Of a stretch of 64,000 bases of DNA, positions 2,404-61,484 are shown in pieces. Under the pieces are notes generated by a model that was not told where the DNA came from, ran no database searches, and worked only from the letters and a program-made list of their open reading frames with translations. The stretch is from Escherichia coli. Its GTDB lineage: Bacteria; Pseudomonadota; Gammaproteobacteria; Enterobacterales; Enterobacteriaceae. Location of the stretch: NCBI RefSeq assembly GCF_003790525.1, contig NZ_CP033635.1. One strand, 5' to 3'. Within the stretch, counting starts at the first letter, position 1. Each line of letters begins with the position of its first letter. The translations under genes and the position numbers were made by a program.

Positions 2404-2414
2404 TGGTTATTCCC

Positions 2415-28168: not shown

Positions 28169-28184
28169 TTGATGCTCATTTTCT

Positions 28185-28372
28185 TGCCGCATGCGGCGTG
28201 AACGCCTTATCCGGCCTACCGTTCCAACACCGACTGTAGGCCTGATAAGATGCGCCAGCATCGCATCAGGCATGGTGTGCCGATTGCCGGATGCGGCGTG
28301 AACGCCTTATCCGGCCTACCGTTCCGACACCGCCTGTAGACCTGATAAGACGCGCCAGCATCGCATCAGGCT
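28185..28372. repeat. REP/BIME cluster (two tandem roughly 100-bp units of paired REP palindromes)
   Basis: GCCGGATGCGGCGTGAACGCCTTATCCGGCCTAC and its inverted partner GTAGGCCTGATAAGACGCGCCAGCATCGCATCAGGC appear twice in tandem between convergent purK and ybcF. Confidence 0.85.
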
Positions 28373-28400
28373 AGATGTGCCAATTGCCTGGTGCCCATCA

Positions 28401-33053: not shown

Positions 33054-33369
33054 AACAACTCCTTAAAAATTGCACCCATGGCAATTGCACGAGCAGTGTT
33101 AATGTGGCGATTACGGTATCGATGACAACGAGTAAATAAGGTGATGAATATCACACAGGGATTATTAACAAAAGAATTCAAATAACCGCCGGGCTATTAC
33201 GCGTTATTTTTTAATAAGCGTGATTGTTTTAAAAACCAGGTTAAAAGCGAGCGGATTATCAAATAAATTCTAACTATATTTTTTTGCCTGTCTGGATCAC
33301 ATAATCCAGATATTTTCCCTGTATGTTAATTGCAGTCATGCTTCACATCGTCGTTAAAAAGGAAGACAG

Positions 33370-34419
33370 ATGAAAATCAGTCGGGAAACACTCCACCAGC
33401 TAATTGAGAATAAACTCTGCCAGGCTGGGTTAAAACGTGAGCACGCTGCAACCGTGGCTGAAGTATTGGTTTACGCCGATGCCAGAGGGATCCACTCTCA
33501 TGGCGCGGTGCGCGTGGAATACTACGCCGAACGCATTTCAAAAGGCGGCACCAACCGTGAACCGGAATTTCGTCTTGAAGAAACCGGACCGTGCTCGGCA
33601 ATTTTACATGCCGACAATGCCGCCGGACAGGTCGCGGCGAAAATGGGTATGGAACATGCCATCAAAACCGCCCAGCAAAATGGCGTTGCGGTGGTCGGTA
33701 TCAGCCGGATGGGTCACAGCGGCGCAATCTCTTATTTTGTACAGCAGGCAGCTCGCGCCGGGTTAATTGGCATTTCGATGTGCCAGTCCGATCCAATGGT
33801 GGTGCCGTTTGGCGGCGCGGAAATTTACTACGGTACTAACCCACTGGCCTTTGCCGCGCCGGGAGAAGGCGACGAGATCCTTACCTTTGATATGGCGACT
33901 ACCGTACAGGCATGGGGAAAAGTGCTCGACGCCCGTTCGCGTAATATGTCTATCCCGGATACCTGGGCGGTCGATAAAAACGGTGCACCAACAACCGATC
34001 CGTTCGCGGTACATGCTCTGCTCCCCGCCGCTGGGCCGAAAGGGTATGGCCTGATGATGATGATTGACGTCCTCTCAGGCGTCTTACTCGGCTTACCGTT
34101 TGGGCGACAGGTTAGTTCGATGTATGACGATTTACACGCCGGGCGTAATTTGGGGCAATTACATATCGTTATTAACCCGAACTTTTTCTCCTCCAGCGAA
34201 TTATTCCGTCAACATCTTAGCCAGACCATGCGCGAATTAAATGCCATTACCCCCGCGCCCGGTTTTAATCAGGTTTATTATCCCGGACAGGATCAGGATA
34301 TTAAACAACGCAAAGCCGCCGTCGAAGGCATCGAAATTGTTGATGATATTTACCAGTATTTGATTTCCGACGCGCTTTATAACACGTCATACGAAACGAA
34401 AAATCCCTTTGCGCAATAA
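33370..34419 (+). CDS. allD: AllD, ureidoglycolate dehydrogenase
   Basis: 349-aa ORF MKISRETLHQLIENKLCQAGLKREHA, Ldh_2 family. Confidence 0.9.
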   Translation: MKISRETLHQLIENKLCQAGLKREHAATVAEVLVYADARGIHSHGAVRVEYYAERISKGGTNREPEFRLEETGPCSAILHADNAAGQVAAKMGMEHAIKTAQQNGVAVVGISRMGHSGAISYFVQQAARAGLIGISMCQSDPMVVPFGGAEIYYGTNPLAFAAPGEGDEILTFDMATTVQAWGKVLDARSRNMSIPDTWAVDKNGAPTTDPFAVHALLPAAGPKGYGLMMMIDVLSGVLLGLPFGRQVSSMYDDLHAGRNLGQLHIVINPNFFSSSELFRQHLSQTMRELNAITPAPGFNQVYYPGQDQDIKQRKAAVEGIEIVDDIYQYLISDALYNTSYETKNPFAQ

Positions 34420-34440
34420 TTATTGAGACAGGACTTTCTT

Positions 34441-35676
34441 ATGATTACACATTTCCGTCAAGCTATAGAAGAAACGCTGCCCTGGCTTTCCTCTTTTGGC
34501 TCTGACCCAACGGGTGGAATGACCCGTTTACTTTATTCGCCGGAATGGTTGGAAACCCAGCAGCAATTTAAAAAAAGAATGGCAGCAAGCGGGCTGGAAA
34601 CACGTTTCGATGAAGTGGGGAATTTATACGGTCGCCTGAGTGGCACCGAATATCCACAGGAAGTGGTTCTGAGCGGTTCGCATATCGATACCGTGGTTAA
34701 CGGCGGTAACCTCGACGGACAATTCGGCGCACTGGCGGCGTGGCTGGCAATTGACTGGTTGAAAACGCAATACGGCGCGCCGTTACGTACGGTCGAAGTG
34801 GTGGCGATGGCAGAAGAAGAAGGCAGCCGCTTCCCGTATGTCTTCTGGGGCAGTAAAAATATCTTTGGGCTGGCGAATCCTGACGACGTGCGGAATATCT
34901 GTGATGCCAAAGGAAATAGTTTTGTCGATGCGATGAAGGCTTGCGGATTTACTCTGCCGAACGCCCCACTAACTCCGCGTCAGGATATTAAAGCCTTTGT
35001 CGAACTGCATATCGAACAGGGCTGTGTGCTGGAAAGTAATGGGCAATCAATTGGCGTGGTGAATGCAATTGTCGGGCAACGTCGCTATACGGTGACGCTG
35101 AATGGCGAATCAAACCATGCAGGCACCACGCCGATGGGTTATCGTCGTGATACGGTTTACGCTTTCAGTCGCATTTGCCATCAGTCGATCGAAAAAGCGA
35201 AAAAGATGGGCGACCCGCTGGTGCTGACCTTTGGCAAGGTGGAACCGCGCCCGAATACGGTAAATGTGGTGCCGGGGAAAACCACGTTCACCATTGATTG
35301 TCGTCATACCGACGCCGCCGTGCTGCGCAATTTCACCCAACAGTTAGAAAACGACATGCGGGCGATTTGCGATGAAATGGACATTGGTATTGATATCGAT
35401 TTATGGATGGACGAAGAACCGGTGCCGATGAATAAGGAGCTGGTCGCCACCCTGACAGAATTGTGTGAAAGCGAAAAACTGAATTACCGGGTAATGCACA
35501 GTGGTGCCGGGCACGACGCACAAATTTTCGCGCCTCGCGTGCCGACCTGCATGATTTTCATTCCCAGCATCAACGGGATCAGCCATAACCCGGCGGAACG
35601 CACCAATATTACCGACCTTGCCGAAGGGGTCAAAACGTTGGCACTCATGCTTTATCAACTTGCCTGGCAGAAATAA
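34441..35676 (+). CDS. allC: AllC, allantoate amidohydrolase (M20 family)
   Basis: 411-aa product from MITHFRQAIEETLPWLSSFG. Confidence 0.9.
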   Translation: MITHFRQAIEETLPWLSSFGSDPTGGMTRLLYSPEWLETQQQFKKRMAASGLETRFDEVGNLYGRLSGTEYPQEVVLSGSHIDTVVNGGNLDGQFGALAAWLAIDWLKTQYGAPLRTVEVVAMAEEEGSRFPYVFWGSKNIFGLANPDDVRNICDAKGNSFVDAMKACGFTLPNAPLTPRQDIKAFVELHIEQGCVLESNGQSIGVVNAIVGQRRYTVTLNGESNHAGTTPMGYRRDTVYAFSRICHQSIEKAKKMGDPLVLTFGKVEPRPNTVNVVPGKTTFTIDCRHTDAAVLRNFTQQLENDMRAICDEMDIGIDIDLWMDEEPVPMNKELVATLTELCESEKLNYRVMHSGAGHDAQIFAPRVPTCMIFIPSINGISHNPAERTNITDLAEGVKTLALMLYQLAWQK

Positions 35677-35686
35677 GGAGTCATAA

Positions 35687-36472
35687 ATGGGATATTTAAA
35701 TAACGTCACCGGTTACCGCGATGATTTACTGGCTAACCGTGCGATTGTGAAACACGGTAATTTCGCGCTGTTAACCCCGGACGGCCTGGTAAAAAATATT
35801 ATTCCGGGCTTTGAAAATTGTGACGCGACAATCCTCTCCACGCCAAAACTGGGTGCCTCTTTTGTTGATTATCTGGTCACACTGCATCAAAACGGCGGCA
35901 ACCAACAGGGCTTCGGTGGCGAAGGCATTGAAACGTTCCTGTATGTGATCTCTGGAAATATCACTGCCAAAGCCGAAGGTAAAACATTTGCCTTAAGCGA
36001 AGGTGGCTATCTTTATTGCCCGCCAGGCTCCTTAATGACGTTTGTTAACGTCCAGGCCGAAGACAGCCAAATCTTTTTATATAAGCGTCGCTATATTCCG
36101 GTAGAAGGTCATGCGCCGTGGCTGGTTTCTGGCAATGCCAGCGAACTGGAACGCATTCATTATGAAGGCATGGACGATGTTATTCTGCTGGATTTTCTGC
36201 CCAAAGAGTTAGGTTTTGATATGAACATGCATATCCTCTCTTTTGCACCAGGTGCCAGCCACGGTTATATCGAAACCCACGTTCAGGAACACGGTGCCTA
36301 TATTCTTTCCGGTCAGGGGGTTTATAACCTCGACAATAACTGGATCCCGGTGAAAAAAGGCGATTACATCTTTATGGGCGCTTATTCTTTACAGGCTGGT
36401 TATGGCGTAGGGCGTGGTGAAGCGTTCAGCTATATTTACTCGAAAGATTGCAACCGCGACGTAGAGATTTAA
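35687..36472 (+). CDS. allE: AllE (YlbA), (S)-ureidoglycine aminohydrolase, bicupin
   Basis: 261-aa ORF MGYLNNVTGYRDDLLANRAIVKHG. Confidence 0.88.
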   Translation: MGYLNNVTGYRDDLLANRAIVKHGNFALLTPDGLVKNIIPGFENCDATILSTPKLGASFVDYLVTLHQNGGNQQGFGGEGIETFLYVISGNITAKAEGKTFALSEGGYLYCPPGSLMTFVNVQAEDSQIFLYKRRYIPVEGHAPWLVSGNASELERIHYEGMDDVILLDFLPKELGFDMNMHILSFAPGASHGYIETHVQEHGAYILSGQGVYNLDNNWIPVKKGDYIFMGAYSLQAGYGVGRGEAFSYIYSKDCNRDVEI

Positions 36473-36513
36473 GTCATACCACTCGCCTGATTATTTTTAG
36501 CTATGTTGGATTT

Positions 36514-36541
36514 TGCCACGGTTTATTCCGTGGCTTTTTTT
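36514..36541 (+). terminator. Rho-independent terminator after allDCE
   Basis: GCCACGG-TTTATTC-CGTGGC stem-loop followed by TTTTTTT. Confidence 0.75.
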
Positions 36542-36556
36542 GCGGTAAATTCAGGT

Positions 36557-36590
36557 AAAAAACGGATGCGATATAAATCGCATCCGCTTT
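36557..36590 (-). terminator. Rho-independent terminator after glxK
   Basis: CGGATGCGATATAAATCGCATCCG stem-loop followed on the minus strand by a T-run (plus-strand AAAAAA at 36557-36562). Confidence 0.7.
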
Positions 36591-36601
36591 AAAGGTAATA
36601 G

Positions 36602-37747
36602 TCAGTTTTTAATTCCCTGACCTATTTTAATGGCGCAGGCAATATTTCGTGCGCTGTTGAAGAGATTGGTTTCACCGCTGGCGAGCACTTCGGCTAAAGG
36701 TGCCAGACGTGGCAAAATGCTGAACACCGCGTCAATGCCGTACTGGTGCACCACTTCCACGCCATCACCCAATACGCCAGCAATCCCAATCACCGGGACA
36801 TTAAACTGCTTCGCCACCGACGCCACGCCCAGCGGCGCTTTACCACCTGCCGTTTGCGAATCGATGCGCCCTTCCCCGGTGATCACCAGCGCTGCACCCT
36901 GCACCGCCTGCTCCAGGTTGACCGCCCGCAGTACAATCTCAATACCCGGTTTAATATCCGCATTGAGGAATACCGCCGCCGCAATGCCCATACCGCCCGC
37001 CGCGCCGCCACCCGCCATCTGGCAGACGTTGATTTCAGTTAGCTGTTGTAAAACACGGGCGTAATTTTGCAGCCCCTGTTCCAGTTCTTCGACCATTTCC
37101 GGCGTTGCCCCTTTTTGCGGACCAAACACCGCCGCCGCGCCGCGTGCCCCTACCAGCGGGTTATCAACGTCACATGCTACTTCAATATGACAGTTCGCCA
37201 GACGCGGATCGCATTCATTCATCTCAATACTTGCCACCCGCGCTAAATTGCCGCCGTTAGCCGCCAGCGGCTGACCGTCGGCATCAAGGAAACGCACACC
37301 GAGCGCCTGCGCCATGCCCATACCGCCGTCGACCGTCGCACTGCCGCCAATGCCGAGAATAATATGGCGAATGCCGTTATCCAGCGCATGGCGAATTAAC
37401 TCCCCCGTACCAAAACTGGAGGCCAGCAACGGATTACGCTTTTCAGGCGCGACCAGCATCAGGCCACTTGCTGCCGCCATCTCAATCACTGCCGTTTTCC
37501 CGTCGCCGGTAAGTCCATAAAAAGCATTCACTTTTTCGCCCATCGGCCCGCAGACTTCAAGCTTCACGATGTTACCGCCCGTCGCGGCGACCATCGCCTC
37601 CACCGTCCCTTCGCCGCCATCCGCTATCGGCAAACAGATATAGTGCGCATCGGGAAATATGGTCGAAAACCCGGCTTTAATTGCCTGACAACATTTTTCT
37701 GCACTTAAGCTCTCTTTAAAAGAGTCTGGCGCAATGACAATCTTCAT
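36602..37747 (-). CDS. glxK: GlxK, glycerate 2-kinase
   Basis: 381-aa product from [27 protein letters not shown]. Confidence 0.9.
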
Positions 37748-38019
37748 TATCAATCCTTTTTCAACAAATTATTCGATGCGTTCCCACGGAATAAGATTAT
37801 CCATAAGAACAGCCAGTAAAATTCCGACCAGTAAGCCGTTACTGAGCAGAGGACGAAGCGTTAATGGAAGGTCTTGCAGATACACAGGCGGTAATGCCAT
37901 TAAAAATATGCCGACAAATAACGGCAATGCGAGTCGATAAATATTGCGAGCGGTAAACGTTATTTGCTGGCTAAACACCAGCGCGGAAAAGAGTAAAGGC
38001 AGATGGTAATGACTCCAAC

Positions 38020-38523
38020 TTACTGATAGTGTTTTATGTTCAGATAATGCCCGATGACCTTGTCATGCAGCTCCACCGATTTTGAGAACGACAGTGACTT
38101 CCGTCCCAGCCTTGCCAGATGTTGTCTCAGATTCAGGTTATGCCGCTCAATTCGCTGAGTGTAACGCTTGCTGATTACGTGCAGCTTTCCCTTCAGGCGG
38201 GATTCATACAGCGGCCAGCCATCCGTCATCCATACCACGACCTCAAAGGCCGACAGCAGGCTTAGAAGACGCTCCAGTGTGGCCAGAGTGCGTTCACCGA
38301 ATACGTGCGCAACAACCGTCTTCCGGAGCCTGTCATACGCGTAAAACAGCCAGCGCTGGCGCGATTTAGCCCCGACGTATCCCCACTGTTCGTCCATTTC
38401 CGCGCAGACGATGACGTCACTGCCCGGCTGTATGCGCGAGGTTACCGACTGCGGCCTGAGTTTTTTAAATGGCGGAAAATCGTGTTGAGGCCAACGCCCA
38501 TAATGCGGGCGGTTGCCCGGCAT
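38020..38523 (-). CDS. insB: InsB, IS1 transposase catalytic ORF (expressed by -1 frameshift as InsAB')
   Basis: 167-aa [54 protein letters not shown]. Confidence 0.95.
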
Positions 38524-38717
38524 CCAACGCCATTCATGGCCATATCAATGATTTTCTGGTGCGTACCGGGTTGAGAAGCGGTGTAAGTGAACTGCAGTTG
38601 CCATGTTTTACGGCAGTGAGAGCAGAGATAGCGCTGATGTCCGGCGGTGCTTTTGCCGTTACGCACCACCCCGTCAGTAGCTGAACAGGAGGGACAGCTG
38701 ATAGAAACAGAAGCCAC
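38442..38717 (-). CDS. insA: InsA, IS1 repressor/transposase N-terminal protein
   Basis: 91-aa [43 protein letters not shown] (zinc-finger plus HTH). Confidence 0.95.
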
Positions 38718-39902
38718 TGGAGCACCTCAAAAACACCATCATACACTAAATCAGTAAGTTGGCAGCATCACCAAGGCAGATAAGAAACCAACATGACCGC
38801 GCTACTCACCGGTAAAGGGATACTGCAAAACAGTCGTGTGAGTGCCGGAACCAGTGCCACCAGCAGGCAAATAACGCTGCCATAAATAAACGATCGTCGC
38901 GTGTAATCGCCAGTCTGGGTTAATAAACCAATGGATGAAACAAACGGTGAAAATGGAATTACCGCCAGCGGCACGGTTATCAGCGTCATAAATCCGGTCG
39001 CCACAAAGCTGCGACGATAACGCGTATTCCCCGCGCCCTGTTGCGGATAAAAAACATCCGTGCCACGAATCGCACCGTAGGTATTGCTGATATTTACCAG
39101 ACCTGTAATCACCGCCGTCAGAATAATCCCCGGCGACAAAGCACCGCCACTGCCGAGCGGGAACCACTGCCAGTGCAACTCACCGGAGAGCGAATGCGAA
39201 GAAGGAAAGCAAAAGTACCACAACAACCAGCCGGTTATCGTACCGACCAGCAGGCCATAACGGGCAAAACGTTGCGGCAGGAAGATAATCATCGCCAGTA
39301 CCAGGCACATCACCGCCACCGAGAGCGCGAACGGCGGTAACTGAATTTTAAAATTCGGGTCGGCTATGCCAAACGGCAGCCCGAGCATACCTTTGAAAAA
39401 GATAGTGGTCAGCTGCGCGCCCAGCATCAACATAAACAAGACCATCACCGACGGCGTAAATAACCGCGCCAGACGATGACCTAATCCGCTAAAACCAATC
39501 AACATCGTCAGCACGCCAGAGAGCGCAATTCCCACCGCCAGGCTGGTAGCGATATCGTTGATCGGTGTCCCGCGCGATGCTTCGCCAAGGGTGATAGTCA
39601 GGATGGTTCCCCACCACAGGCCACCCGGCCCTTCCATAATAGCGCGACGATGACCGCAGAACGCCTGAGCGAAGCAGGCCAGTGCGGTAGCAAGAAAAGC
39701 ATATTGCGTGAGCGTAAGCAGGCTACTTTGCGGCAACTGAAAAGCAGAAAGTAGCGTAGGAGGAACCACAACCGTGTTGCAAAAAATAAAGAAAAACCAC
39801 TGAAATCCTGATAACAGGCTTTCGCGGCCCACTGCAAAATTGAACATAAACACACCTTAACCGGAGAATGCCCGCCACAAGGACGGGCATTGCAGGGCCA
39901 GA

Positions 39903-41264
39903 TTACTGCTGATGTTTAAGGATAAATTGACCTTTCGGCGCAACAGGGAAGCCCTGTTCGATGTCGTAAATCACATCACCACGTAAGATGGTTTTCGTGA
40001 TACGCGCGCCAATAGTACGGCCAACATACGGGCTGACTTTGTGGCGATATTCCAGATCGTCATTGGTAAGAACATAGCTGCTATTCGGCTGAATGAAGAC
40101 GAAGTCGGCATCTTTTCCTGGGGCGATACGGCCTTTTTGCTGCAGACCGAAAATATCTGCTGCGTTAGTCGCCATTAATTTGCCGAACATTGGCAGAGAC
40201 ATTCCGCGTTTCTGTACCGCTTCATCGAACATCACGTCCATGCAGCTTTGCAGACCAGCGATACCGCCCCACGCTTTCATGATGTTACCGGCTTTCATTT
40301 CCGGCGGGCATGGAGAGTGGTCGGAAACCAGGCAGTCTATTTCACCGTTAAACAGTTTTTCCCACATGCCTTTCTGGTTTTCCAGATCGCGGATCGGCGG
40401 TGAACACTTCGCCAGGGTGCCAATTTCTTCGAACTGATCGGTATCCAGCACAAAGTAATGCGGGCAGGATTCACAGGTAACATCCTGGCCTTCCTGACGT
40501 GCACGAGTCACTTCTTCAACACCTTCCGGGCTGCTGATATGGCAAACGTGCAGACGGCAACCGGCAACTTTCGCCAGGTACAGCACGCGGCGAATCGCTT
40601 CCACTTCGGTAAATACCGGACGCGAAGCCACATAGTCATGTGCGGTTACGCGACCTTCACGTTTCGCTTCTTCGCCAAGTTCGTCACAGATCAGCGCGTT
40701 TTCGCAGTGCACCAGCACCGGCTGTCCCAGTTCGCCCAGCTTCTGCGCACCTTTGAAGAACTGCCAGTCATTGACGTCACGGAAGTCGTTGTCGATACCG
40801 CGATCGCCACAGGTCGCAACGAAGCATTTGAAGCCGACAACGCCCACTTCATCCAGCTCATGCAGACGGTCGATGTTGTAAGACACCAGGCCACCGAGTT
40901 GCGCCGCATCGATAGTCAGCTTGCCTTTGGCGGCATCAAACTTCAGTTCAATCGATGCGCGGTCAACCGTTGCAGGCAGCTGGTTGAGCGGCATTTCGAT
41001 CATGGTGGTGATACCACCTTTTGCTGCTGCGCGAGTACCGGTTTCATAACCTTCCCAGTGGCTGCGACCCGGTTCAGAAATATGGGTGTGCGCATCAACC
41101 ATGCCTGGCGAAACCACCAGACCAGACGCATCCATAACTTCTTTTGCATCGCCCAGATCCTGACCGATAGCAGCAATTTTTCCGCCTTTAACGGCGACAT
41201 CCACTACGCGAGCTTCGTTTTCTAAAATAACGGTGCCGTTTTTAATGATTAAATCAAAAGACAT
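39903..41264 (-). CDS. allB: AllB, allantoinase
   Basis: 453-aa product from [34 protein letters not shown]; cyclic amidohydrolase with metal-binding His motifs. Confidence 0.9.
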
Positions 41265-41324
41265 AACAAACTCCTTGTAAAATACAGATTGGTTTTTTAA
41301 CTCAATGTTCAATATCGGGATTAA

Positions 41325-42779
41325 TTAACCTGTGACTTTTTGTTCTCCTGTTTTTTCTGCTGCAGTACGCTTCTTTAATAAGGCGTAGGCCGCAAAGGCG
41401 ACAATAACGCCGACAAACCATGAAACGCGTGATAAAGGCTCCATGAACGGAATAAATTTACCACCGAGAGATAAAATAACGGCGACCAAAGTTACTGAGA
41501 ACGCGGTAAGGTTAAAGCCGTTATCGTAATATTTGAAATCCCCTGCTGCGGTATACAGTTCATCAAGATTAATTTGTCCGCGCATCACCACAAAATAATG
41601 CGCCATCATGACACCAATTACCGGACCCAGCATTCCGCCGATAATATCGAGGAACAGATAAATGCTGTCCTGATTTTCCATTAATTTCCACGGGCAGATC
41701 AGCAAGCTGATAATACTGGCAATCAGTACGCCGTTTTTATAGGTCAGTTTCGTCGGTGCAATAGCGGCTATCTGATAACCAGCCGGAATAATATTACCGG
41801 TGGCGTTAGTGGAGATAGTCGTCATCAGAATAACCAGTACCGCAAAGAACGAGGCAAACAGGCTGTCCCAACGCTGAACAATATCCAGCACGTTCCAGGT
41901 GTCCGCGCCGTAGTGAATACTGGCTCCGGCAATAATACATACCCCGGCGACCGCAAACAGAATATAGGCCACAACTAAACCCAGCGTTTGCCCCAGCGCC
42001 TGCTCACGAAACGAGTGGGCGTTTTGCGTAAAGTCGGATGCGCTCACCGCCGGTGCCGCCCAGACCGCAACTACCGCGTTAATCACCACCAGGAACAGGA
42101 AGCCACCGTTTTCTGCTTTCTGAATACCGCCCGGAATATAGTCAAAGATTGGACCGATCCCGACCAGCGAAATCGCCCAAATCGCCATACCGCCGAAAAC
42201 GATATAGATGCACGGGTTAAGAATGGCAGTGAATTTATTTAAAACTTTGCCATCACCGAAACCGATTCCGACGTTCACCAGCCAGAAGAGTAAGAAAGTG
42301 ATTAAACCCGGTAGAGAAAGCCCTAACAGGGTAAAATCACCACCGAGAGTTAAAAATCCCGGCCAGATTTTGCCAATCAGGATCAAGCAGGCCAGCGATC
42401 CAGCGTAACATTGCAGGCCAAACCACATAATGGCAGCAATCCCGCCTCTTAATAATCCGGGAAACAGTGCACCACGTACGCCGTAAGAAGCACGCAGGAT
42501 CATGGCAAAAGGCACACCGTATTTACTGCCCGCAGCACCGTTTAATACCATTACCGCGGCAATGAAAAAGGCGCTGAGGATAATTGCCAGCATAATACTA
42601 AAGGTAGACAAGCCGAGAATAAAAAAGCCGCCGACCATCACATAATTGGGAACGTTATGAACCGAACCCATCCATAAGGTAAAATAGTTAAATGTTTTCC
42701 AGGTCCGCTGGCTTTGCGTTTTCGGCAATAGATCTTCGCTATAGCCGCGTTGCTGGAATAGTTTTCTCTGATGTTCCAT
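41325..42779 (-). CDS. ybbW: YbbW, putative allantoin permease (NCS1 family)
   Basis: 484-aa polytopic membrane ORF MEHQRKLFQQRGYSEDLLPKTQSQRTW. Confidence 0.85.
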   Translation of the reverse strand: MEHQRKLFQQRGYSEDLLPKTQSQRTWKTFNYFTLWMGSVHNVPNYVMVGGFFILGLSTFSIMLAIILSAFFIAAVMVLNGAAGSKYGVPFAMILRASYGVRGALFPGLLRGGIAAIMWFGLQCYAGSLACLILIGKIWPGFLTLGGDFTLLGLSLPGLITFLLFWLVNVGIGFGDGKVLNKFTAILNPCIYIVFGGMAIWAISLVGIGPIFDYIPGGIQKAENGGFLFLVVINAVVAVWAAPAVSASDFTQNAHSFREQALGQTLGLVVAYILFAVAGVCIIAGASIHYGADTWNVLDIVQRWDSLFASFFAVLVILMTTISTNATGNIIPAGYQIAAIAPTKLTYKNGVLIASIISLLICPWKLMENQDSIYLFLDIIGGMLGPVIGVMMAHYFVVMRGQINLDELYTAAGDFKYYDNGFNLTAFSVTLVAVILSLGGKFIPFMEPLSRVSWFVGVIVAFAAYALLKKRTAAEKTGEQKVTG

Positions 42780-42948
42780 AAATCCCTCTTAATTTCACGT
42801 ATCGAATAACGTCTTTTTAATCTAGCTATGAGGAACAAATAAAATAAAAATATTATTTTTAATACTGAAGCAACATCTTTGGCTGCTTTCTTTTTTTAAT
42901 ATTGCTGGCCGATTCATTTTCTGATATCGGCCATTTTTATTGCGGGTA

Positions 42949-43827
42949 TCAGGCCAGTTTATGGTTAGCCATTAATTCCAGCGCCTGCACTAACGCAGAG
43001 TGATCCAACTGGCTACCACCGTTTGCCGCACAGGTATTAAACAATTCCTGGCAGGTCGCGGTGTTTGGCAGATTCAGCGCCAGTGCTTTCGCACTTTGCA
43101 GTGCCAGGTTGAGATCTTTCTGGTGCAGCGCAATTTTAAAACCTGGATTAAAGGTGCGTTTAATCATGCGCTCACCGTGAACTTCCAGAATACGTGAGGA
43201 AGCAAAGCCGCCCATCAGCGCCTGGCGCACACGTACCGGATCCGCTCCGGCTTTTGAAGCAAATAGCAGGGCTTCAGAAACCGCTTCAATATTGAGCGCC
43301 ACGATAATCTGATTTGCCACTTTGCAGGTTTGACCGTCGCCGTTACCGCCCACGAGGGTGATATTTTTACCGAGCAGTTCAAACAGCGGTTTAACACGTT
43401 CAAATACCGCTTCGTCACCGCCAACCATAATCGACAACGTCCCTTCACGCGCGCCGATTTCACCGCCGGAGACGGGCGCATCGAGATAATCGCCGCCCAG
43501 TTCATTCACCTGACGAGCGAAACGTTTAGTTTCGATCGGGGAAATGGAGCTCATATCAACAATGGTTTTGCCCTTCAGCGAGGCTTTGGTACAACCATTT
43601 TCACCAAACAGAACGTCTTCAACCTGTGGCGTATCCGGCACCATAATAAAAATGATGTCCGATGCTTCCGTTACCTGGCGCGCAGTTTCAACACTGACGG
43701 CACCCAGTGACAGTAATTCATCAGCAACCGGACCAATGGTTGTGACATGCAGTTGATGACCGGCACGCGCCAGATTAATGGCCATCGGAGTACCCATAAT
43801 GCCTAAGCCAATAAATCCCAGTTTCAT
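42949..43827 (-). CDS. glxR: GlxR, tartronate semialdehyde reductase
   Basis: 292-aa ORF MKLGFIGLGIMGTPMAINLARAGH with NAD-binding Rossmann motif. Confidence 0.92.
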   Translation of the reverse strand: MKLGFIGLGIMGTPMAINLARAGHQLHVTTIGPVADELLSLGAVSVETARQVTEASDIIFIMVPDTPQVEDVLFGENGCTKASLKGKTIVDMSSISPIETKRFARQVNELGGDYLDAPVSGGEIGAREGTLSIMVGGDEAVFERVKPLFELLGKNITLVGGNGDGQTCKVANQIIVALNIEAVSEALLFASKAGADPVRVRQALMGGFASSRILEVHGERMIKRTFNPGFKIALHQKDLNLALQSAKALALNLPNTATCQELFNTCAANGGSQLDHSALVQALELMANHKLA

Positions 43828-43926
43828 AATTAACCTCTTTTAAATTTCGCTTTTCCTGAATTCAGACAACACGATCCCCTGCCGACTTAGCGACCTAAAA
43901 AAGCATTGTCTGAATAGCGTTACGTT

Positions 43927-44703
43927 TTAACGGTACGGATCCATCCAGCGTAAACCAGCTTCCGTGGTGGTTTGGGGTTTATATTCACAGCCAATCCAAC
44001 CGTTGTAGTCAGAATTTTCAATTACCGTAAAGAGATATTCGTAATTAATTTCTCCGGTTCCCGGTTCGCCGCGATGCGGATTATCAGCGATTTGCAGGTG
44101 ACCAATTTTATCGGCCCATTGCGTCATAGTGTTGGTTAATTCACCCTCCATCCGCTGCATGTGATAAATGTCATACTGAATTTTCAAATTGCAGCAACCA
44201 ACATCATCAATCAATTTCAGCGCCTGCCGAGTTCCGGTGAGATGGAAACCAGGAATATCAAAATGGTTGATAGGTTCAATCAGTAATAAAATATCTTCTT
44301 TCATCAGCATATTCGCGGCATAACGCAGGTTTTCTACAAGCGTTGCGTGAATCTGTTCACTGCTGAAACCAGCCGGCGTTTTACCGACCAGACAGTTAAT
44401 TTTTTTATTACCCAGCGCACGAGCATAACGAATCGCTGCTGCTACGCCATCCCGAAACTCTTCTTCACGGCCAGGAATACAGGCAATACCCCGCTCGCCC
44501 GCCGCCCAGTCACCTGCCGGTAAATTGTGCAGCGTATGTTCGAGTTTATTACTCGCCAGCACCTGTTTTAATTCTTCAATGTCGTAGTCATAAGGGAACA
44601 TAAATTCAACGCCGCGAAAACCACACTGCGCAGCTTTCTCAAAACGGGCGAGAAAATCATATTCACCAAATAACATCGATAAATTAGCAGAGAAACGTAA
44701 CAT
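43927..44703 (-). CDS. hyi: Hyi, hydroxypyruvate isomerase
   Basis: 258-aa ORF MLRFSANLSMLFGEYDFLARFEKAAQCGFRGVEF. Confidence 0.92.
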   Translation of the reverse strand: MLRFSANLSMLFGEYDFLARFEKAAQCGFRGVEFMFPYDYDIEELKQVLASNKLEHTLHNLPAGDWAAGERGIACIPGREEEFRDGVAAAIRYARALGNKKINCLVGKTPAGFSSEQIHATLVENLRYAANMLMKEDILLLIEPINHFDIPGFHLTGTRQALKLIDDVGCCNLKIQYDIYHMQRMEGELTNTMTQWADKIGHLQIADNPHRGEPGTGEINYEYLFTVIENSDYNGWIGCEYKPQTTTEAGLRWMDPYR

Positions 44704-44715
44704 TATTTATCTCCC

Positions 44716-46497
44716 TTATTCATAGTGCATGAAACAGGTTTCAGTCGGTGCGTCCGCTGCGTTATCGGCGATATCTTCAAATTCCATGACGTTATCCAGT
44801 TCACTGCCCATCGAAATATTGGTCACACGCTCGAGAATAACTTCCACGACTACAGGTACCCGATATTGCGCTATTAAGACTTTCGCCTGTTCAAAGGCTG
44901 GTGCAATATCTTCCGGTTTGAAAACGCGAATTGCTTTACAACCTAAACCTTCCGCTACTTTTACGTGGTCGACGCCATAACCGTTCACTTCGCTGGAGTT
45001 AATATTTTCGAAAGCGAGCTGTACGCAGTAATCCATATCAAACGCGCGCTGCGACTGGCGAATCAGCCCCAGATAAGCGTTGTTCACCAGTACATGGATG
45101 TACGGAATATTGAACTGTGCGCCAACGGCTAATTCTTCAATCAGGAACTGGAAGTCGAAGTCACCGGAAATCGCCACCACATTGCGCTCTGGATCAGCGG
45201 CACACACGCCCAGCGCCGCCGGAATGGTCCAGCCCAACGGGCCTGCCTGCCCACAGTTGATCCAGTGGCGGTCTTTAAAGACATGCAGCATTTGTGCCGC
45301 AGCGATTTGTGACAGACCAATGGTGGTGACATAACAAACATCGCGACCAAAGGCTTTGTTCATCTCTTCATACACGCGCTGCGGTTTCACCGGCACATTG
45401 TCGAAGTGGGTTTTGCGCAGCAAAGTGCGTTTGCGCTGCTGGCAGTCGGCGACCCATTCTTTACGACACGGCAGACGACCCGCTTTTTGCATCTCCTGCG
45501 CCACTTCAACCAGCAGCGTCAGCGCTGCTTTAGCATCAGAGACAATGCCGAGATCCGGACACAGCACGCGGCCAATTTGCGTCGGCTCAATATCGATATG
45601 AACGATTTTGCGCCCTTCGGTGTATTTCTCTACCGAACCGGTATGACGGTTAGCAAAACGGTTACCGATACCAAACACCATGTCGGACGCCAGCAGCGTT
45701 GCGTTACCGTAACGATGCGCGGTTTGCAGACCCACCATCCCGGCCATCAGTTCATGATCGTCGGGAATACAGCCCCAGCCCATCAGCGTTGGGATCACCG
45801 GAACGCTGGTCAGTTCAGCAAACTGTTGTAACAGTGCAGCAGCGTCAGCATTGATTACCCCGCCCCCGGCAACAATCACCGGACGTTCGGCCTGAATTAA
45901 CATTTCTACAGCTTTTTCGATCTGCATACGGCTGGCAGCAGGTTTGTAGACCGGCAGCGGTTCGTACATGTCAGGATCAAACTCGATTTCCGCAACCTGA
46001 ACGTCGAACGGTAAATCCACCAGTACCGGACCCGGGCGACCAGAACGCATCAGGTGAAACGCCTGTTGCAGCACACGAGGCACCAGCGCCGCTTCACGAA
46101 CTGTAACCGCCATTTTGCTGACCGGTTTAGCAATTGCTTCAATATCAACGGCCTGGAAATCTTCTTTATGCAGACGGGCGCGCGGAACCTGGCCGGTAAT
46201 ACACAGAATAGGAATGGAATCAGCAGAAGCAGAATAGAGCGCGGTGATCATGTCCGTGCCCGCAGGACCGGAAGTCCCCAGACATACGCCGATATTCCCT
46301 GCCGTTGCGCGGGTATAACCTTCCGCCATGTGCGAAGCACCTTCCACATGACGCGCCAGAATGTGACGAATACCGCCGTGCTTACGCATCGCTGAGTAGA
46401 ACGGATTGATTGCAGCTCCCGGAACGCCGAAGGCGGTGATGATACCTTCTTTCTCCAGCACATACATTGCCGCGTCAACGGCTCTCATTTTTGCCAT
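44716..46497 (-). CDS. gcl: Gcl, glyoxylate carboligase (ThDP-dependent)
   Basis: 593-aa product from [34 protein letters not shown]. Confidence 0.92.
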
Positions 46498-55824: not shown

Positions 55825-55990
55825 TTGAAATGCGATGTGCTGGTTTGTAGGCCTGATAAGACGCGCCAGCGTCGCATCAGGCATCCGCGCATAGCCGCCG
55901 GATGCGGCGTGAACGCCTTATCCGGCCTACCAAACCGTGCTAATTCAATACATTGCAGGTGCCATGTAGGTCTGATAAGACGCATCAGGC
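55825..55990. repeat. REP/BIME cluster
   Basis: Several copies of the GTAGGCCTGATAAGACGC...GCATCAGGC and GCCGGATGCGGCGTGAACGCCTTATCCGGCCTAC palindromes between convergent ybbN and fetB. Confidence 0.85.
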
Positions 55991-57585: not shown

Positions 57586-58503
57586 ATGCTTATCTTTATC
57601 CCTATTCTCATTTTTGTCGCGCTGGTCATTGTCGGCGCGGGCGTCAAAATCGTGCCGCAGGGCTATCAATGGACGGTAGAGCGTTTTGGTCGCTATACCA
57701 AAACGTTACAGCCAGGTCTAAGCCTAGTGGTGCCCTTTATGGATCGCATTGGTCGCAAGATCAATATGATGGAGCAAGTGCTCGACATCCCTTCCCAGGA
57801 AGTTATCTCGAAAGATAACGCCAACGTTACCATCGACGCCGTGTGCTTTATTCAGGTGATTGATGCCCCGCGCGCCGCTTATGAAGTCAGCAATCTGGAG
57901 CTGGCGATCATCAACCTGACCATGACTAACATCCGTACCGTGCTGGGTTCAATGGAACTTGATGAAATGCTCTCTCAGCGCGACAGCATCAACTCACGCC
58001 TGCTGCGTATTGTCGATGAGGCCACCAACCCGTGGGGGATTAAAGTCACCCGTATTGAAATTCGCGACGTGCGCCCACCGGCAGAGCTTATCTCTTCAAT
58101 GAACGCGCAGATGAAAGCGGAACGTACCAAACGCGCTTACATCCTTGAAGCGGAAGGGATCCGTCAGGCGGAAATCCTCAAAGCCGAAGGTGAAAAACAG
58201 TCGCAAATCCTGAAAGCGGAAGGTGAACGTCAGTCGGCATTCTTACAGGCCGAAGCGCGTGAACGTTCTGCCGAAGCGGAAGCCCGCGCCACCAAAATGG
58301 TGTCTGAAGCCATTGCCTCCGGCGATATTCAGGCGGTGAACTACTTCGTCGCACAGAAATACACCGAAGCGTTACAGCAGATCGGTTCCTCCAGTAACAG
58401 CAAAGTAGTGATGATGCCATTAGAGGCCAGCAGCCTGATGGGGTCGATTGCCGGGATTGCCGAGCTGGTGAAAGACAGCGCCAACAAACGGACTCAGCCA
58501 TGA
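57586..58503 (+). CDS. qmcA: QmcA (YbbK), SPFH/stomatin-family membrane protein
   Basis: 305-aa [40 protein letters not shown]. Confidence 0.9.
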
Positions 58504-59060: not shown

Positions 59061-59423
59061 TTACTCTTCCCGGCCTTTACCCATACTTTTTTGGTCTTCA
59101 TCCGGATAGTGTTTTTTTAGATATTCCAGGACGTTTTTATTGACCTTGTGTTGGGTATACACCCACCCTTTCCAGTAATCAGGTTGGTCCAGGTAAACTT
59201 CTGGCGGAATGGTGAAATCAGAAAGCGTTAACCATTCGGCTAACAGATCGGGGTTTCGTTTCTGGATCAACTGCAACAGCATGATCAGCGACATGGCAGA
59301 GGCAGGAGCCGTACTATCGCCGCTTAAATACTTCCACACTGTCGACCGGTTCGAACGAAAAAGGATCGGTAGCAATGCCCGGTCCAGATTCATTTCATTA
59401 AAAATCTTCTCAAATTCATTCAT
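59061..59423 (-). CDS. Hypothetical 120-aa cytoplasmic protein, possible small DNA-binding regulator
   Basis: ORF with AGGAAA Shine-Dalgarno 6 nt upstream of the ATG; no signal peptide; segment RSNRSTVWKYLSG resembles the recognition helix of small phage-type HTH proteins; transcribed divergently from the adjacent 338-aa gene. I do not recognise the protein. Confidence 0.5.
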   Translation of the reverse strand: MNEFEKIFNEMNLDRALLPILFRSNRSTVWKYLSGDSTAPASAMSLIMLLQLIQKRNPDLLAEWLTLSDFTIPPEVYLDQPDYWKGWVYTQHKVNKNVLEYLKKHYPDEDQKSMGKGREE

Positions 59424-59788
59424 TTAAATTTCCTGCCTGGCGTAAACCTCTTAAAAATTGAGATTTATCAAAGAAACGCATTTTAGCACACATCAGGAAC
59501 CGCTTCACGTTTAGTCCAGAAACAGAATTTATTTCGCTTATCAAAACAAGTCTTTACTCTTTTTTACATTGAAAGAGCACGAAATAATTTCCTTTTTTAT
59601 TTATATAAGAAACTATTTTTGTTCCTTATTGGTGGTGTTTACGCTTACACAAGACAAAAATGCGCTTTACATCACACAAATGGCGGCGTAGATTTCGATC
59701 AAATTGCAACGCAGTTTATTTCTTAAAACAATATTATTTGTTTCTTATAGAAACATTAATGCGACTTATTTTGAACAAGAGAAAATGA

Positions 59789-60805
59789 ATGAAAACTGTA
59801 AACGTAGCTTTACTGGCACTCATAATTTCAGCAATATCCAGCCCTGTTGTTTTAGCTGGTGATACCATTGAAGCGGCGGCAACAGAGCTTTCAGCCATTA
59901 ACTCTGGCATGTCGCAATCGGAGATTGAGCAGAAGATTACCCGCTTTTTAGAACGCACAGACAACAGCCCCGCTGCGTATACCTATTTGACTGAACATCA
60001 CTACATCCCTTCTGAAACACCTGATACCACTCAGACTCCCACTGTCCAGACAGATCCTGACGCAGGACAAAAAACCGTTGCCGCTACAGGTGATGTACAG
60101 ACAACCGCCCGTTATCAGAGCATGATCAACGCCCGACAGTCTGCGGTAACTGATGCCCAGCAAACGCAAATTACAGAGCAACAGGCGCAGATCGTAGCCA
60201 CACAAAAAACGCTCGCCGCGACTGGAGATACGCAAAATACCGCGCATTATCAGGAGATGATTAATGCCAGACTGGCGGCTCAAAATGAGGCTAATCAGCG
60301 CACTACCACGGAACAAGGGCAGAAAATGAATGCACTGACAACCGATGTGGCAGCACAACAGCAAAAAGAAAGGGCTCAATACGATAAACAAATGCAAAGT
60401 CTGGCGCAGAAGTCTGTCCAGGCACATGAGCAAATTGAAAGTCTGAGACAAGATTCCGCACAAACGCAGCAACAGTTAACCAACACGCAAAAACGGGTCG
60501 CAGATAACAGCCAACAAATTAACACGCTCAATAACCATTTCGATTCTCTGAAAAACGAAGTTGAGGACAATCGTAAAGAAGCCAATGCGGGAACTGCATC
60601 TGCCATTGCTATCGCCTCACAACCACAGGTGAAAACCGGTGACGTGATGATGGTGTCAGCGGGAGCGGGAACGTTCAACGGTGAATCTGCGGTGTCTGTA
60701 GGAACATCTTTTAATGCCGGAACGCATACGGTACTTAAAGCAGGTATTTCTGCGGATACACAATCTGATTTCGGTGCGGGTGTCGGCGTGGGATATTCGT
60801 TCTAA
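59789..60805 (+). CDS. Small trimeric-autotransporter-like protein: signal peptide, Gln-rich coiled-coil stalk with two internal repeats, YadA-like C-terminal membrane anchor
   Basis: 338-aa ORF: N-terminal MKTVNVALLALIISAISSPVVLA-GD signal peptide; repeats QKTVAATGDVQTTARYQSMINAR and QKTLAATGDTQNTAHYQEMINAR; heptad-like stalk; C-terminus ANAGTASAIAIASQPQ...GAGVGVGYSF matches the four-strand YadA anchor pattern ending in an aromatic residue. Confidence 0.75.
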   Translation: MKTVNVALLALIISAISSPVVLAGDTIEAAATELSAINSGMSQSEIEQKITRFLERTDNSPAAYTYLTEHHYIPSETPDTTQTPTVQTDPDAGQKTVAATGDVQTTARYQSMINARQSAVTDAQQTQITEQQAQIVATQKTLAATGDTQNTAHYQEMINARLAAQNEANQRTTTEQGQKMNALTTDVAAQQQKERAQYDKQMQSLAQKSVQAHEQIESLRQDSAQTQQQLTNTQKRVADNSQQINTLNNHFDSLKNEVEDNRKEANAGTASAIAIASQPQVKTGDVMMVSAGAGTFNGESAVSVGTSFNAGTHTVLKAGISADTQSDFGAGVGVGYSF

Positions 60806-60858
60806 TTTTAACAGCAATTTCTTATTCGCAATTTTCCGCACATTATTTAAGGTTAACA

Positions 60859-61281: not shown

Positions 61282-61481
61282 AGGAGCAAAGGAAAATCCC
61301 CCTGACGCATATTATGATTATCGGTGCGTTTATTTTTGCCTTCTTGCAAGTGGTGTTATTAGCCTCCCTGGTTCACGCTGTGAATGTTAACAACGAAATC
61401 CAGGAAGGCTTATTTCAGTCGGGGCGCATTATGGTAGAAAGTTTGCAGCATATTCTTTCGGTGCAAACGGGGATTAACTGA
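61278..61481 (+). CDS. Hypothetical small single-pass membrane protein (67 aa)
   Basis: ATG overlaps the lipoprotein stop (ATGA), with AAGGAG inside the upstream gene; one hydrophobic helix IMIIGAFIFAFLQVVLLASLV. Confidence 0.45.
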   Translation: MKEQRKIPLTHIMIIGAFIFAFLQVVLLASLVHAVNVNNEIQEGLFQSGRIMVESLQHILSVQTGIN

Positions 61482-61484
61482 TTT

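What the first reader, a model, noticed from the sequence alone, without database searches (positions are those of the whole stretch)
37996..38781. IS1 insertion disrupting ybbY inside the allantoin gene cluster, with intact 9-bp target duplication
Seen in sequence: complete 768-bp IS1 (both IRs, insA, insB) flanked by identical AAGGCAGAT direct repeats, splitting one permease reading frame into a 361-aa N-terminal and a roughly 70-aa C-terminal fragment. The perfect duplication argues for a fairly recent, simple transposition. Inference: because ybbY lies between allB and glxK on the same strand, the insertion may also be polar on glxK or provide an outward promoter; I recall ybbY as intact in K-12.
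Basis: partly seen in the sequence, partly recalled or inferred. Interest (0 to 1): 0.45.

Follow-up and report, generated by a model that had tools for sequence, protein, structure and literature searches.

The report
IS1 insertion splitting ybbY permease gene
An ordinary, already annotated IS1 insertion sequence has split the ybbY transporter gene in the allantoin gene cluster of the E. coli ST354 lineage (strain SMS-3-5 and relatives), and in several relatives the same IS1 copy sits at the edge of further deletions of neighbouring allantoin genes.

Summary
A complete 768-bp IS1 lies at 38005-38772. It is flanked by identical 9-bp repeats (AAGGCAGAT) and lies in the same direction as allB-ybbY-glxK. 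Removing it in silico restores a 433-aa YbbY that differs from K-12 YbbY at one residue.

The window matches E. coli SMS-3-5 (ST354) at 63,999 of 64,000 bases. RefSeq already annotates the two ybbY pseudogene pieces and the IS1 transposase there.

The insertion marks a lineage. It is present in 21 of 5,426 complete E. coli genomes, from several continents and hosts. Three near-identical relatives have the empty site.

In 9 of those 21 genomes the intact IS1 is joined directly to distant DNA. These are five independent deletions that start at an IS end and remove allW-allB, gcl-to-allB, glxK, or glxK-allECD.

An unrelated strain (LR-48) has a different IS1 isoform, inverted, at the same 9-bp target. 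Four more independent IS1 hits lie within about 350 bp.

Polarity on glxK is plausible but untested. No outward promoter was found. This is known biology of low novelty; the comparative pattern adds modest interest.

The parts
37996..38004 (.). Left copy of the 9-bp target-site duplication, AAGGCAGAT (ybbY nt 1067-1075 on the - strand).
38005..38772 (-). Complete IS1, 768 bp. insA to insB' runs on the - strand, the same direction as ybbY and glxK.
   Evidence: RefSeq annotates 'IS1 family transposase, programmed frameshift'.
38005..38027 (.). IRR end of IS1 (GGTAATGACTCCAACTTACTGAT). It faces the ybbY 3' fragment and glxK.
   Evidence: 19 of 23 positions match IRL.
38750..38772 (.). IRL end of IS1 (GGTGATGCTGCCAACTTACTGAT on the - strand). 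It faces the ybbY 5' fragment.
38738..38765 (-). Promoter-like site CTGCCA-16-TATGAT inside IRL, at the position of the IS1 insA promoter.
   Evidence: a consensus match only. The identification as the insA promoter comes from established IS1 knowledge.
38442..38717 (-). insA, 91 aa, GTG start.
   Evidence: Pfam Zn_ribbon_InsA and HTH_Tnp_IS1.
38460..38466 (-). A6C (AAAAAAC) programmed -1 frameshift motif that joins insA to insB'.
   Evidence: A conceptual 232-aa InsAB' is obtained.
38020..38717 (-). InsAB' transposase coding region (698 nt, 232 aa with the -1 frameshift).
   Evidence: Pfam DDE_Tnp_IS1 at 4.7e-75 over 131 of 131 profile positions. NCBIfam transpos_IS1, 246.5 bits against a cut-off of 100.
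38773..38781 (.). Right copy of the 9-bp target-site duplication, AAGGCAGAT.
38773..39847 (-). ybbY 5' fragment, codons 1-358. The ORF runs 2 codons into IS1 (…YLPW*).
   Evidence: Annotated as a RefSeq pseudogene piece.
37769..38004 (-). ybbY 3' fragment, the last 75 codons plus the stop. It now lacks a start codon.
   Evidence: Annotated as a RefSeq pseudogene piece.
36602..37747 (-). glxK (glycerate kinase), intact. Its ATG is 257 nt downstream of the IS1 IRR end and 21 nt after the ybbY stop. It is the gene expected to suffer polarity.
   Evidence: Operon structure from PMC10163214.
39903..41264 (-). allB (allantoinase), intact, immediately upstream of ybbY.

Best explanation
SHOWN. One copy of the insertion sequence IS1 transposed into codon 356-359 of ybbY and duplicated the 9-bp target AAGGCAGAT. 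ybbY encodes an uncharacterised NCS2/NAT-family nucleobase-type permease. It is the sixth gene of the gcl-hyi-glxR-allW-allB-ybbY-glxK operon.

The IS1 is complete: two inverted repeats, insA, insB', and the A6C frameshift site. It lies in the same direction as the operon.

The break falls inside a hydrophobic helix of YbbY (residues 347-365). It removes that helix's end and two further hydrophobic segments, so ybbY is a pseudogene.

The event happened once, in an ancestor of part of the E. coli ST354 lineage (strain SMS-3-5 and 20 other complete genomes). It has been inherited vertically since.

In 9 of those 21 genomes the same intact IS1 copy borders a deletion that begins exactly at one IS end. 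There are five independent deletion events. These are the expected products of IS1 intramolecular replicative transposition ('adjacent deletion'), or of recombination with a transient second IS1 copy. They removed allW-allB; gcl'-hyi-glxR-allW-allB; glxK; and, twice, glxK-allE-allC-allD.

INFERRED. Transcripts from the AllR-controlled gcl promoter now meet a ybbY stop codon two codons into IS1, followed by poorly translated IS1 RNA. glxK expression from the operon promoter should therefore be strongly reduced, as in classical IS1 polarity.

GlxK is reported to activate allantoinase AllB allosterically. The insertion may therefore weaken the allantoin pathway beyond the loss of YbbY, and leave the cluster under relaxed selection. 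That would fit the repeated secondary deletions.
For: Anatomy and target duplication.

Protein families. InsAB' matches Pfam Zn_ribbon_InsA, HTH_Tnp_IS1 and DDE_Tnp_IS1, and NCBIfam transpos_IS1. Repaired YbbY matches NCBIfam PRK11412 over 433 of 433 positions at 816 bits, and Pfam Xan_ur_permease over profile positions 2-388 of 389.

Repair. The excised sequence equals K-12 YbbY except S7G. The repaired 1,524-bp sequence exists verbatim, as a single aligned piece at 100% identity, in strains TUM1586, EC17CM2 and e1-39. Those strains are also about 100% identical to the window over 24 kb.

Identity of the window. It equals SMS-3-5 NC_010498.1 539601-603600 (reverse complement) with 1 mismatch. 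SMS-3-5 is ST354 (PMC9174282).

Distribution. The IRR junction is present at 100% identity in 16 genomes, and the IRL junction in 17. The union is 21 genomes, and 12 have both junctions.

Deletions, all leaving IS1 at 768 bp:
- del 38773-42937 in 2D, KFu014 and MINF_1A
- del 38773-44903 in E22
- del 36543-38004 in three CUVET strains (and coordinate arithmetic)
- del 33223-38004 in SBF22 and del 33063-38004 in CM2

Hydropathy.

Literature. Operon structure and GlxK activation of AllB: PMC10163214. IS1 intramolecular transposition gives deletions that leave the IS without direct repeats: PMC9330008, citing Turlan and Chandler 1995. No promoter-like site lies between IS1 and glxK.
Against: Nothing contradicts the structural part.

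The functional part is untested. No expression data were available. The scan for C-rich, G-poor stretches, a crude proxy for Rho loading sites, was uninformative. IS1's own weak promoter, or read-through, could still give some glxK expression.

The paralogue garK (from my own knowledge) may cover the metabolic role of GlxK.

Deletion of allantoin genes in this lineage could reflect niche-related dispensability that has nothing to do with polarity.

Adjacent deletion and recombination between two IS1 copies give the same product and cannot be told apart here.
Confidence: 0.93

Rival explanations
1. The IS1 is an assembly artefact: a repeat placed wrongly in the assembly.
For: IS1 is multi-copy in these genomes, with 6 places in the SMS-3-5 chromosome. 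Repeats can be misplaced in assemblies.
Against: Both junctions are identical in 12 independent complete assemblies, and one junction in 9 more. The 9-bp duplication is perfect, and excision restores the reading frame exactly.
Confidence: 0.01
2. The insertion activates or decouples glxK instead of silencing it. A hybrid promoter (a -35 hexamer in the IRR end plus a -10 hexamer in the flank), or IS1 read-out, gives AllR-independent glxK expression.
For: IS1 ends are known to create fusion promoters (Prentki et al. 1986, as cited in PMC9330008). Reading outward from IRR gives TTGGAG, 17 nt, then TACTCT.
Against: Each hexamer matches consensus at only 3 of 6 positions. The scan reports no promoter-like site at the junction or anywhere between IS1 and glxK. 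The better outward -35 hexamer of IS1 (TTGGCA, in IRL) faces the other way. glxK was later deleted in 5 of the 21 IS-bearing genomes (CUVET x3, SBF22, CM2), which argues against a selected gain of expression.
Confidence: 0.07
3. The insertion, and the later deletions, were positively selected because loss of YbbY or of allantoin/glyoxylate catabolism is advantageous in the ST354 niche. On this view they are not neutral hitch-hikers.
For: There are five independent secondary deletions in 21 genomes. There are at least five further independent IS1 hits in the ybbY-glxK segment in unrelated strains, including one at the identical 9-bp target.
Against: The locus is retained in 5,348 of 5,426 genomes, and in 5,324 of them a single place covers at least 80% of the query. 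IS1 target preference for A+T-rich DNA can explain the recurrence: the 100-bp windows 37700-37799 and 37900-37999 are 36% and 42% G+C, against about 52% nearby. IS1 is intrinsically deletion-prone. No phenotype data were available.
Confidence: 0.15
4. The insertion is older than the whole near-identical clade, and the three empty-site strains lost IS1 by precise excision.
For: The empty-site strains are as close to the window over 24 kb (1-2 mismatches) as the IS-bearing strains are.
Against: Precise excision of IS1 that also removes one duplicate copy exactly is rare (my own knowledge). Three such losses, or one in a common ancestor, is less parsimonious than one late gain. The 24-kb comparison has no resolving power either way.
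Confidence: 0.05

Closest known systems
IS1 (IS1 family; K-12 isoforms IS1A/E, IS1B/C, IS1D, IS1F)
   Same: The length is 768 bp. The terminal repeats are about 23 bp and imperfect. It has insA, insB' and the A6C -1 frameshift giving a 232-aa InsAB'. The target duplication is 9 bp and the target region is A+T-rich.
   Different: The isoform looks like a mosaic. Bases 1-486 are identical to a copy annotated IS1B-like (KFu015). There are 21 differences in bases 487-750. It differs at 28 positions from an IS1A-like copy. PGAP names it only 'IS1 family transposase'. I could not assign an ISfinder isoform name.
Classical IS1 polar insertions in the gal and lac operons (Jordan, Saedler and Starlinger 1968, and later work; my own knowledge, with the reference seen)
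   Same: IS1 lies inside a promoter-proximal gene of a polycistronic operon, with one intact gene downstream and no intervening promoter-like site.
   Different: Polarity here is predicted, not measured. The downstream gene product GlxK also acts as an allosteric activator of the upstream enzyme AllB (PMC10163214). A polar effect could therefore feed back on a gene upstream of the insertion.
IS1-mediated adjacent (replicative) deletions (Reif and Saedler 1975, my own knowledge; Turlan and Chandler 1995, cited in PMC9330008)
   Same: In 9 relatives the IS1 is retained intact, one flank is unchanged, the other flank is a distant sequence, and the matching copy of the target duplication is gone.
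   Different: These deletions are seen in natural isolates, not in selection experiments. They occur at both IS ends, in five independent events from a single resident copy.
ybbY (b0513) of E. coli K-12, a putative purine or uracil/xanthine transporter of the NCS2/NAT family
   Same: The repaired product is 432 of 433 residues identical to K-12 YbbY, in the same position between allB and glxK.
   Different: Here the gene is interrupted after codon 358. The substrate of YbbY is still unknown (PMC3809563), so the direct phenotypic cost cannot be stated.

Membership tests
IS1 family insertion sequence | Element of about 768 bp bounded by imperfect terminal inverted repeats of about 23 bp (GGTRATG…CCAACTTA…). 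| tested here: met
   768 bp. The inverted repeats match at 19 of 23 positions. The end motif is unique in the window and occurs 0 times in shuffles.
IS1 family insertion sequence | Two consecutive frames, insA and insB', joined by a -1 frameshift at an A6C motif to give the InsAB' transposase. | tested here: met
   insA is 91 aa. AAAAAAC lies at IS position 307-313. The conceptual fusion is 232 aa with no internal stop. RefSeq annotates 'programmed frameshift'.
IS1 family insertion sequence | Transposase with an InsA zinc ribbon, a helix-turn-helix domain and an IS1-type DDE domain. | tested here: met
   Pfam PF03811 (8e-21), PF12759 (6.4e-28) and PF03400 (4.7e-75, full profile length). NCBIfam NF033558 scores 246.5 bits against a cut-off of 100.
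IS1 family insertion sequence | Target-site duplication of 9 bp (occasionally 8). | tested here: met
   AAGGCAGAT occurs twice. The empty site, with one copy, is found verbatim in three close relatives and in K-12.
IS1 family insertion sequence | Transposition activity of this particular copy. | not testable with these tools
   Indirect evidence only: five deletions start exactly at its ends in relatives.
NCS2/NAT nucleobase:cation symporter family (YbbY) | Full-length match to the family profile, Xan_ur_permease, with about 14 transmembrane segments. | tested here: met
   The repaired protein matches PF00860 over profile positions 2-388 of 389 (2.8e-100), and NF008502 over 433 of 433 positions at 816 bits. 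The interrupted gene ends at residue 358, inside hydrophobic segment 347-365, and lacks segments 380-398 and 405-423.
NCS2/NAT nucleobase:cation symporter family (YbbY) | Demonstrated nucleobase transport. | not testable with these tools
   YbbY is listed as a hypothetical transporter, and a deletion spanning ybbW-allB-ybbY had no effect on purine-analogue sensitivity (PMC3809563).
IS1 polar insertion in an operon | The downstream gene is co-transcribed with the interrupted gene and has no promoter of its own. | tested here: inconclusive
   The literature gives one operon, gcl-…-ybbY-glxK (PMC10163214). The spacer between ybbY and glxK is 21 nt, and there is no promoter-like site on the - strand in 37748-38004. 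A consensus scan cannot exclude a weak promoter.
IS1 polar insertion in an operon | Reduced expression of the downstream gene. | not testable with these tools
   No transcript data were available.

The most novel reading that the evidence does not exclude
The ybbY::IS1 copy acts as a locus-specific 'deletion seed'. It lies in tandem with an inducible operon, so read-through from the gcl promoter (induced by glyoxylate or allantoin) would raise InsAB' synthesis in cis. Upstream transcription was shown to stimulate tandem IS1 copies in K-12 (PMC12428005). The allantoin cluster of ST354 would then be eroded preferentially under the very conditions that induce it. The AAGGCAGAT site and the ybbY-glxK spacer would also be true IS1 hot spots that make this operon a recurrent target across E. 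coli.
Probability: 0.15. Interest if true: 0.4.

Novelty: already known. Interest (0 to 1): 0.14.

Why it matters
The finding has little importance on its own. It is a textbook IS1 insertion, already annotated in a public reference genome, in a gene of unknown substrate.

It has three practical uses.

(1) It is a clean lineage marker for a sub-clade of the multidrug-resistant ST354 lineage.

(2) It offers a natural series for testing two published claims: that GlxK is needed for efficient AllB activity, and that upstream transcription stimulates IS1. The series runs from the empty site, to the insertion, to five different adjacent deletions.

(3) It reminds annotators that the allantoin pathway should not be scored as intact in these strains. 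In 9 of the 21 genomes it has lost allB/allW, glxK or allCDE.

Tried and rejected
- I looked for an IS1-created outward promoter. The scan found only the IS1 insA promoter-like site in IRL and an unrelated site at 39345-39372. The manual candidate TTGGAG-17-TACTCT is weak, so I rejected it as a supported feature.

- I tried a C/G-ratio profile of the sense strand as a crude indicator of Rho loading sites. Only a stretch inside insA reaches C/G of 1.8-1.9, and nothing is distinctive downstream. It is uninformative and I did not use it.

- Terminator-like hairpins in the ybbY 3' fragment are short and lie in coding sequence. There were 10 against 4.9 ± 2.7 expected, so I did not interpret them.

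- I tried to read the SMS-3-5 genome paper (PMC2566207) for comments on this locus, but it is not held.

- Searches for open-access primary papers on IS1 polarity returned only reference-list mentions. Polarity therefore rests on textbook knowledge.

- I could not name the IS1 isoform in ISfinder terms or list the other IS1 copies of the SMS-3-5 chromosome, because the search tool reports one place per record.

- The survey of independent IS1 hits is limited to about 700 bp around the two junction queries. For one search it is also limited to one IS orientation. I therefore make no formal hot-spot statistic.
Full report
**1. The observation**

The reported interval 37996-38781 consists of AAGGCAGAT, a 768-bp element, and AAGGCAGAT again.

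- The ends of the element are the two IS1 inverted repeats. They match each other at 19 of 23 positions.
- The IS1 end motif occurs once in the 64-kb window and never in shuffled sequence.
- insA (91 aa, 38442-38717) and the insB' frame lie on the - strand.
- The AAAAAAC frameshift motif is at 38460-38466. A -1 shift there gives a 232-aa InsAB' with no internal stop.
- That protein carries the three IS1 transposase domains in Pfam and passes the NCBIfam IS1 model.

So the IS1 is complete. It is oriented with IRL towards the 5' part of ybbY and IRR towards the 3' part of ybbY and glxK. This is the same direction as the allB-ybbY-glxK genes, which are all on the - strand.

**2. The interrupted gene**

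- The 361-aa ORF upstream (38768-39853, -) is 2 extra N-terminal codons, then YbbY residues 1-358, then Trp-stop read from the IS end.
- The last 75 codons lie at 37769-38004.
- Removing IS1 plus one repeat copy restores a single ORF.
- The K-12 MG1655 record has an intact 433-aa ybbY between allB and glxK.
- The repaired allele differs from K-12 by one residue (S7G) and 34 of 1,302 nucleotides.
- The repaired protein matches the YbbY equivalog model over its full length (816 bits) and Pfam Xan_ur_permease.
- The break lies inside a hydrophobic segment (residues 347-365). Two further hydrophobic segments are lost.
- The truncated product is therefore very unlikely to be a working transporter. 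This last step is an inference from the family architecture.

**3. Where the window comes from, and what is already annotated**

- The window equals E. coli SMS-3-5 (NC_010498.1, 539601-603600, reverse complement) at 63,999 of 64,000 bases.
- The single difference is C against T at 35755. It is synonymous in allE. Other members of the clade carry the window's C.
- SMS-3-5 is an ST354 strain (PMC9174282).
- RefSeq already annotates two 'uracil/xanthine transporter' pseudogene pieces flanking an 'IS1 family transposase, programmed frameshift'.
- The feature is therefore public and correctly annotated.

**4. Distribution**

- The IRR junction (200 bp of flank plus 200 bp of IS) is present at 100% identity in 16 of 5,426 complete E. 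coli genomes.
- The IRL junction is present in 17.
- The union is 21 genomes, and 12 have both junctions.
- The strains come from humans, chickens, dogs, a pangolin, rivers and surface water. They were isolated in China, Japan, Australia, Thailand and Switzerland, as well as the SMS-3-5 reference strain.
- The repaired, IS-free sequence exists verbatim, as one aligned piece at 100% identity, in TUM1586, EC17CM2 and e1-39.
- Those three strains are also essentially identical to the window over 24 kb of neighbouring sequence.
- The ybbY segment is present in 5,348 of 5,426 genomes, and in 5,324 of them a single place covers at least 80% of the query.
- The simplest history is one insertion inside the ST354 lineage, after its separation from the three empty-site strains, followed by clonal spread.
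- 'Recent' is therefore true relative to E. coli diversification. The insertion is nevertheless old enough to be worldwide.

**5. What happened next at this IS1 copy**

In 9 of the 21 genomes one junction is missing because the intact 768-bp IS1 is joined directly to distant DNA.

| IS end | Deleted interval | Strains | Genes lost | Calls |
|---|---|---|---|---|
| IRL | 38773-42937 | 2D, KFu014, MINF_1A | ybbY 5' part, allB, allW | 25, 26, 28, 30 |
| IRL | 38773-44903 | E22 | the same, plus glxR, hyi and the 3' end of gcl | 27, 30 |
| IRR | 36543-38004 | three CUVET dog isolates | ybbY 3' part, glxK | 33, 35; same offsets |
| IRR | 33223-38004 | SBF22 | ybbY 3' part, glxK, allE, allC, allD | 37, 39 |
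| IRR | 33063-38004 | CM2 | ybbY 3' part, glxK, allE, allC, allD | 38, 39 |

This makes five independent events. Each starts exactly at an IS end and removes the adjacent copy of the duplication. That is the product expected from IS1 intramolecular replicative transposition (PMC9330008, citing Turlan and Chandler 1995). Recombination with a transient second IS1 copy would give the same product, and the two routes cannot be distinguished here.

**6. Recurrence in unrelated strains**

| Strain | IS1 and site (window-equivalent coordinates) |
|---|---|
| LR-48 | Flanks about 96% identical to the window. Different IS1 isoform (94.9% identical), inverted, with its end on exactly the same base as the window's right repeat (…cattacc\|aaggcagataag…). 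Its other end is joined to the interior of allE. |
| EM20-18-50 | IS1 in the 21-nt ybbY-glxK spacer, with a 9-bp duplication (TCCTTTTTC). |
| KFu015 | IS1 in the same spacer, with an 8-bp duplication (CCTTTTTC). Its IS1 differs from the EM20-18-50 copy at 50 positions. |
| PEC414 | IS1 at 37928-37936. |
| E8 | IS1 in about codon 30 of glxK. |

Together with the ST354 insertion, this gives at least six independent IS1 insertions within about 350 bp. The region is A+T-rich: the 100-bp windows 37700-37799 and 37900-37999 are 36% and 42% G+C, against about 52% nearby. That fits IS1's known regional preference. The survey is limited to the surroundings of my two junction queries, so I do not claim a statistically established hot spot.

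**7. How it most likely works**

Shown: ybbY is inactivated, IS1 is intact, and it lies in tandem with the operon.

Inferred:

- The glxK ATG is 21 nt after the ybbY stop and 257 nt from the IS1 end.
- No promoter-like site lies in between.
- Ribosomes now stop two codons into IS1, and most of the IS1 RNA is poorly translated.
- Rho-dependent polarity on glxK is therefore expected. This is the classical IS1 behaviour in gal and lac, cited here from textbook knowledge.
- I put this at about 0.6.

A hybrid outward promoter is not supported. The candidate is TTGGAG-17-TACTCT, with 3 of 6 matches in each hexamer.

GlxK is reported to lower the Km of allantoinase AllB for allantoin by direct binding (PMC10163214). 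Reduced GlxK could therefore weaken the allantoin pathway upstream of the insertion too. The later loss of allB/allW, glxK and allCDE in nine relatives shows the cluster is dispensable in this lineage. Whether that results from the insertion or from the niche cannot be decided here.

A recent study reports that upstream transcription into tandem IS1 copies raises their transposition (PMC12428005). That suggests, speculatively, that operon induction could stimulate this copy.

**8. Comparison with what is known, and verdict**

Every defining feature of IS1 that can be read from sequence is met. The isoform looks mosaic: it is identical to an IS1B-like copy over bases 1-486 and has 21 differences in bases 487-750.

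The insertion, the pseudogene and the transposase are already annotated in RefSeq. This is a known kind of event and a known instance.

The comparative observations are tidy natural-history additions and do not amount to a new phenomenon. They are the lineage marker, the five adjacent deletions, and the same-site independent insertion.

- Interest: 0.14.
- Novelty: already known.

Noticed in passing
window 35755 (allE codon 23): This is the only difference between the window and RefSeq SMS-3-5 over 64 kb: C in the window, T in NC_010498.1. It is synonymous (His, CAC/CAT). Four other clade genomes carry C (2D, KFu014, E22, MINF_1A). The window may therefore come from another clade member or record version, or SMS-3-5 has a private change.
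   Followed up: partly
L016 (E. coli LR-48, NZ_AP027543.1) 2267-3034; equivalent to window 38773: An IS1 of a different isoform (94.9% identical), in inverted orientation, sits at exactly the same 9-bp target AAGGCAGAT in an unrelated lineage. An adjacent deletion runs to the interior of allE (window-equivalent 36160). allB is frameshifted there as well.
   Followed up: yes
L002, L003, L004, L015; equivalent to window 37754-37762, 37755-37762, 37928-37936 and about 37653-37660: Four further independent IS1 insertions occur in unrelated strains. Two are at virtually the same spot in the 21-nt ybbY-glxK spacer, with a 9-bp and an 8-bp duplication and different isoforms. One is in the 3' part of ybbY. 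One is in about codon 30 of glxK.
   Followed up: partly
window 36479-36545 (- strand): An Rfam match to the enterobacterial sRNA family STnc480 (81.9 bits against a gathering score of 72) lies immediately 3' of glxK, overlapping the allE/glxK convergent terminator hairpin (36515-36534). If it is a glxK 3'-UTR-derived RNA, it would share any polarity from the IS1. In the CUVET strains the IS1 end abuts it directly (junction at 36542/36543).
   Followed up: no
window 28184-28388, and 55850-55927: There is a two-copy 100-bp tandem repeat (91% identical) between ybcF/arcC and purK. It matches Rfam naRNA4 (REP325-type element) at 28239-28316. A second naRNA4 match lies at 55850-55927.
   Followed up: partly
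window 14894-14967 (- strand) and neighbours: tRNA-Arg lies next to fimZ and is followed directly by envY-ybcH-nfrA-nfrB. From memory, K-12 carries the DLP12 prophage at this tRNA (argU). No prophage genes are annotated here, so the attachment site appears unoccupied in this lineage.
   Followed up: no
window about 59400-61500 (SMS-3-5 542120-544540): Between cueR and ybbJ there is a small block annotated as two hypothetical proteins, a YadA-family autotransporter adhesin (1,017 nt) and another hypothetical protein. From memory it is not part of the K-12 arrangement. I did not examine it.
   Followed up: no
window 58141-58236: A 33-bp tandem repeat (2.9 copies, 75% matches) lies inside the coding region annotated as qmcA (SPFH-domain protein). 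It is probably a protein-level repeat.
   Followed up: no
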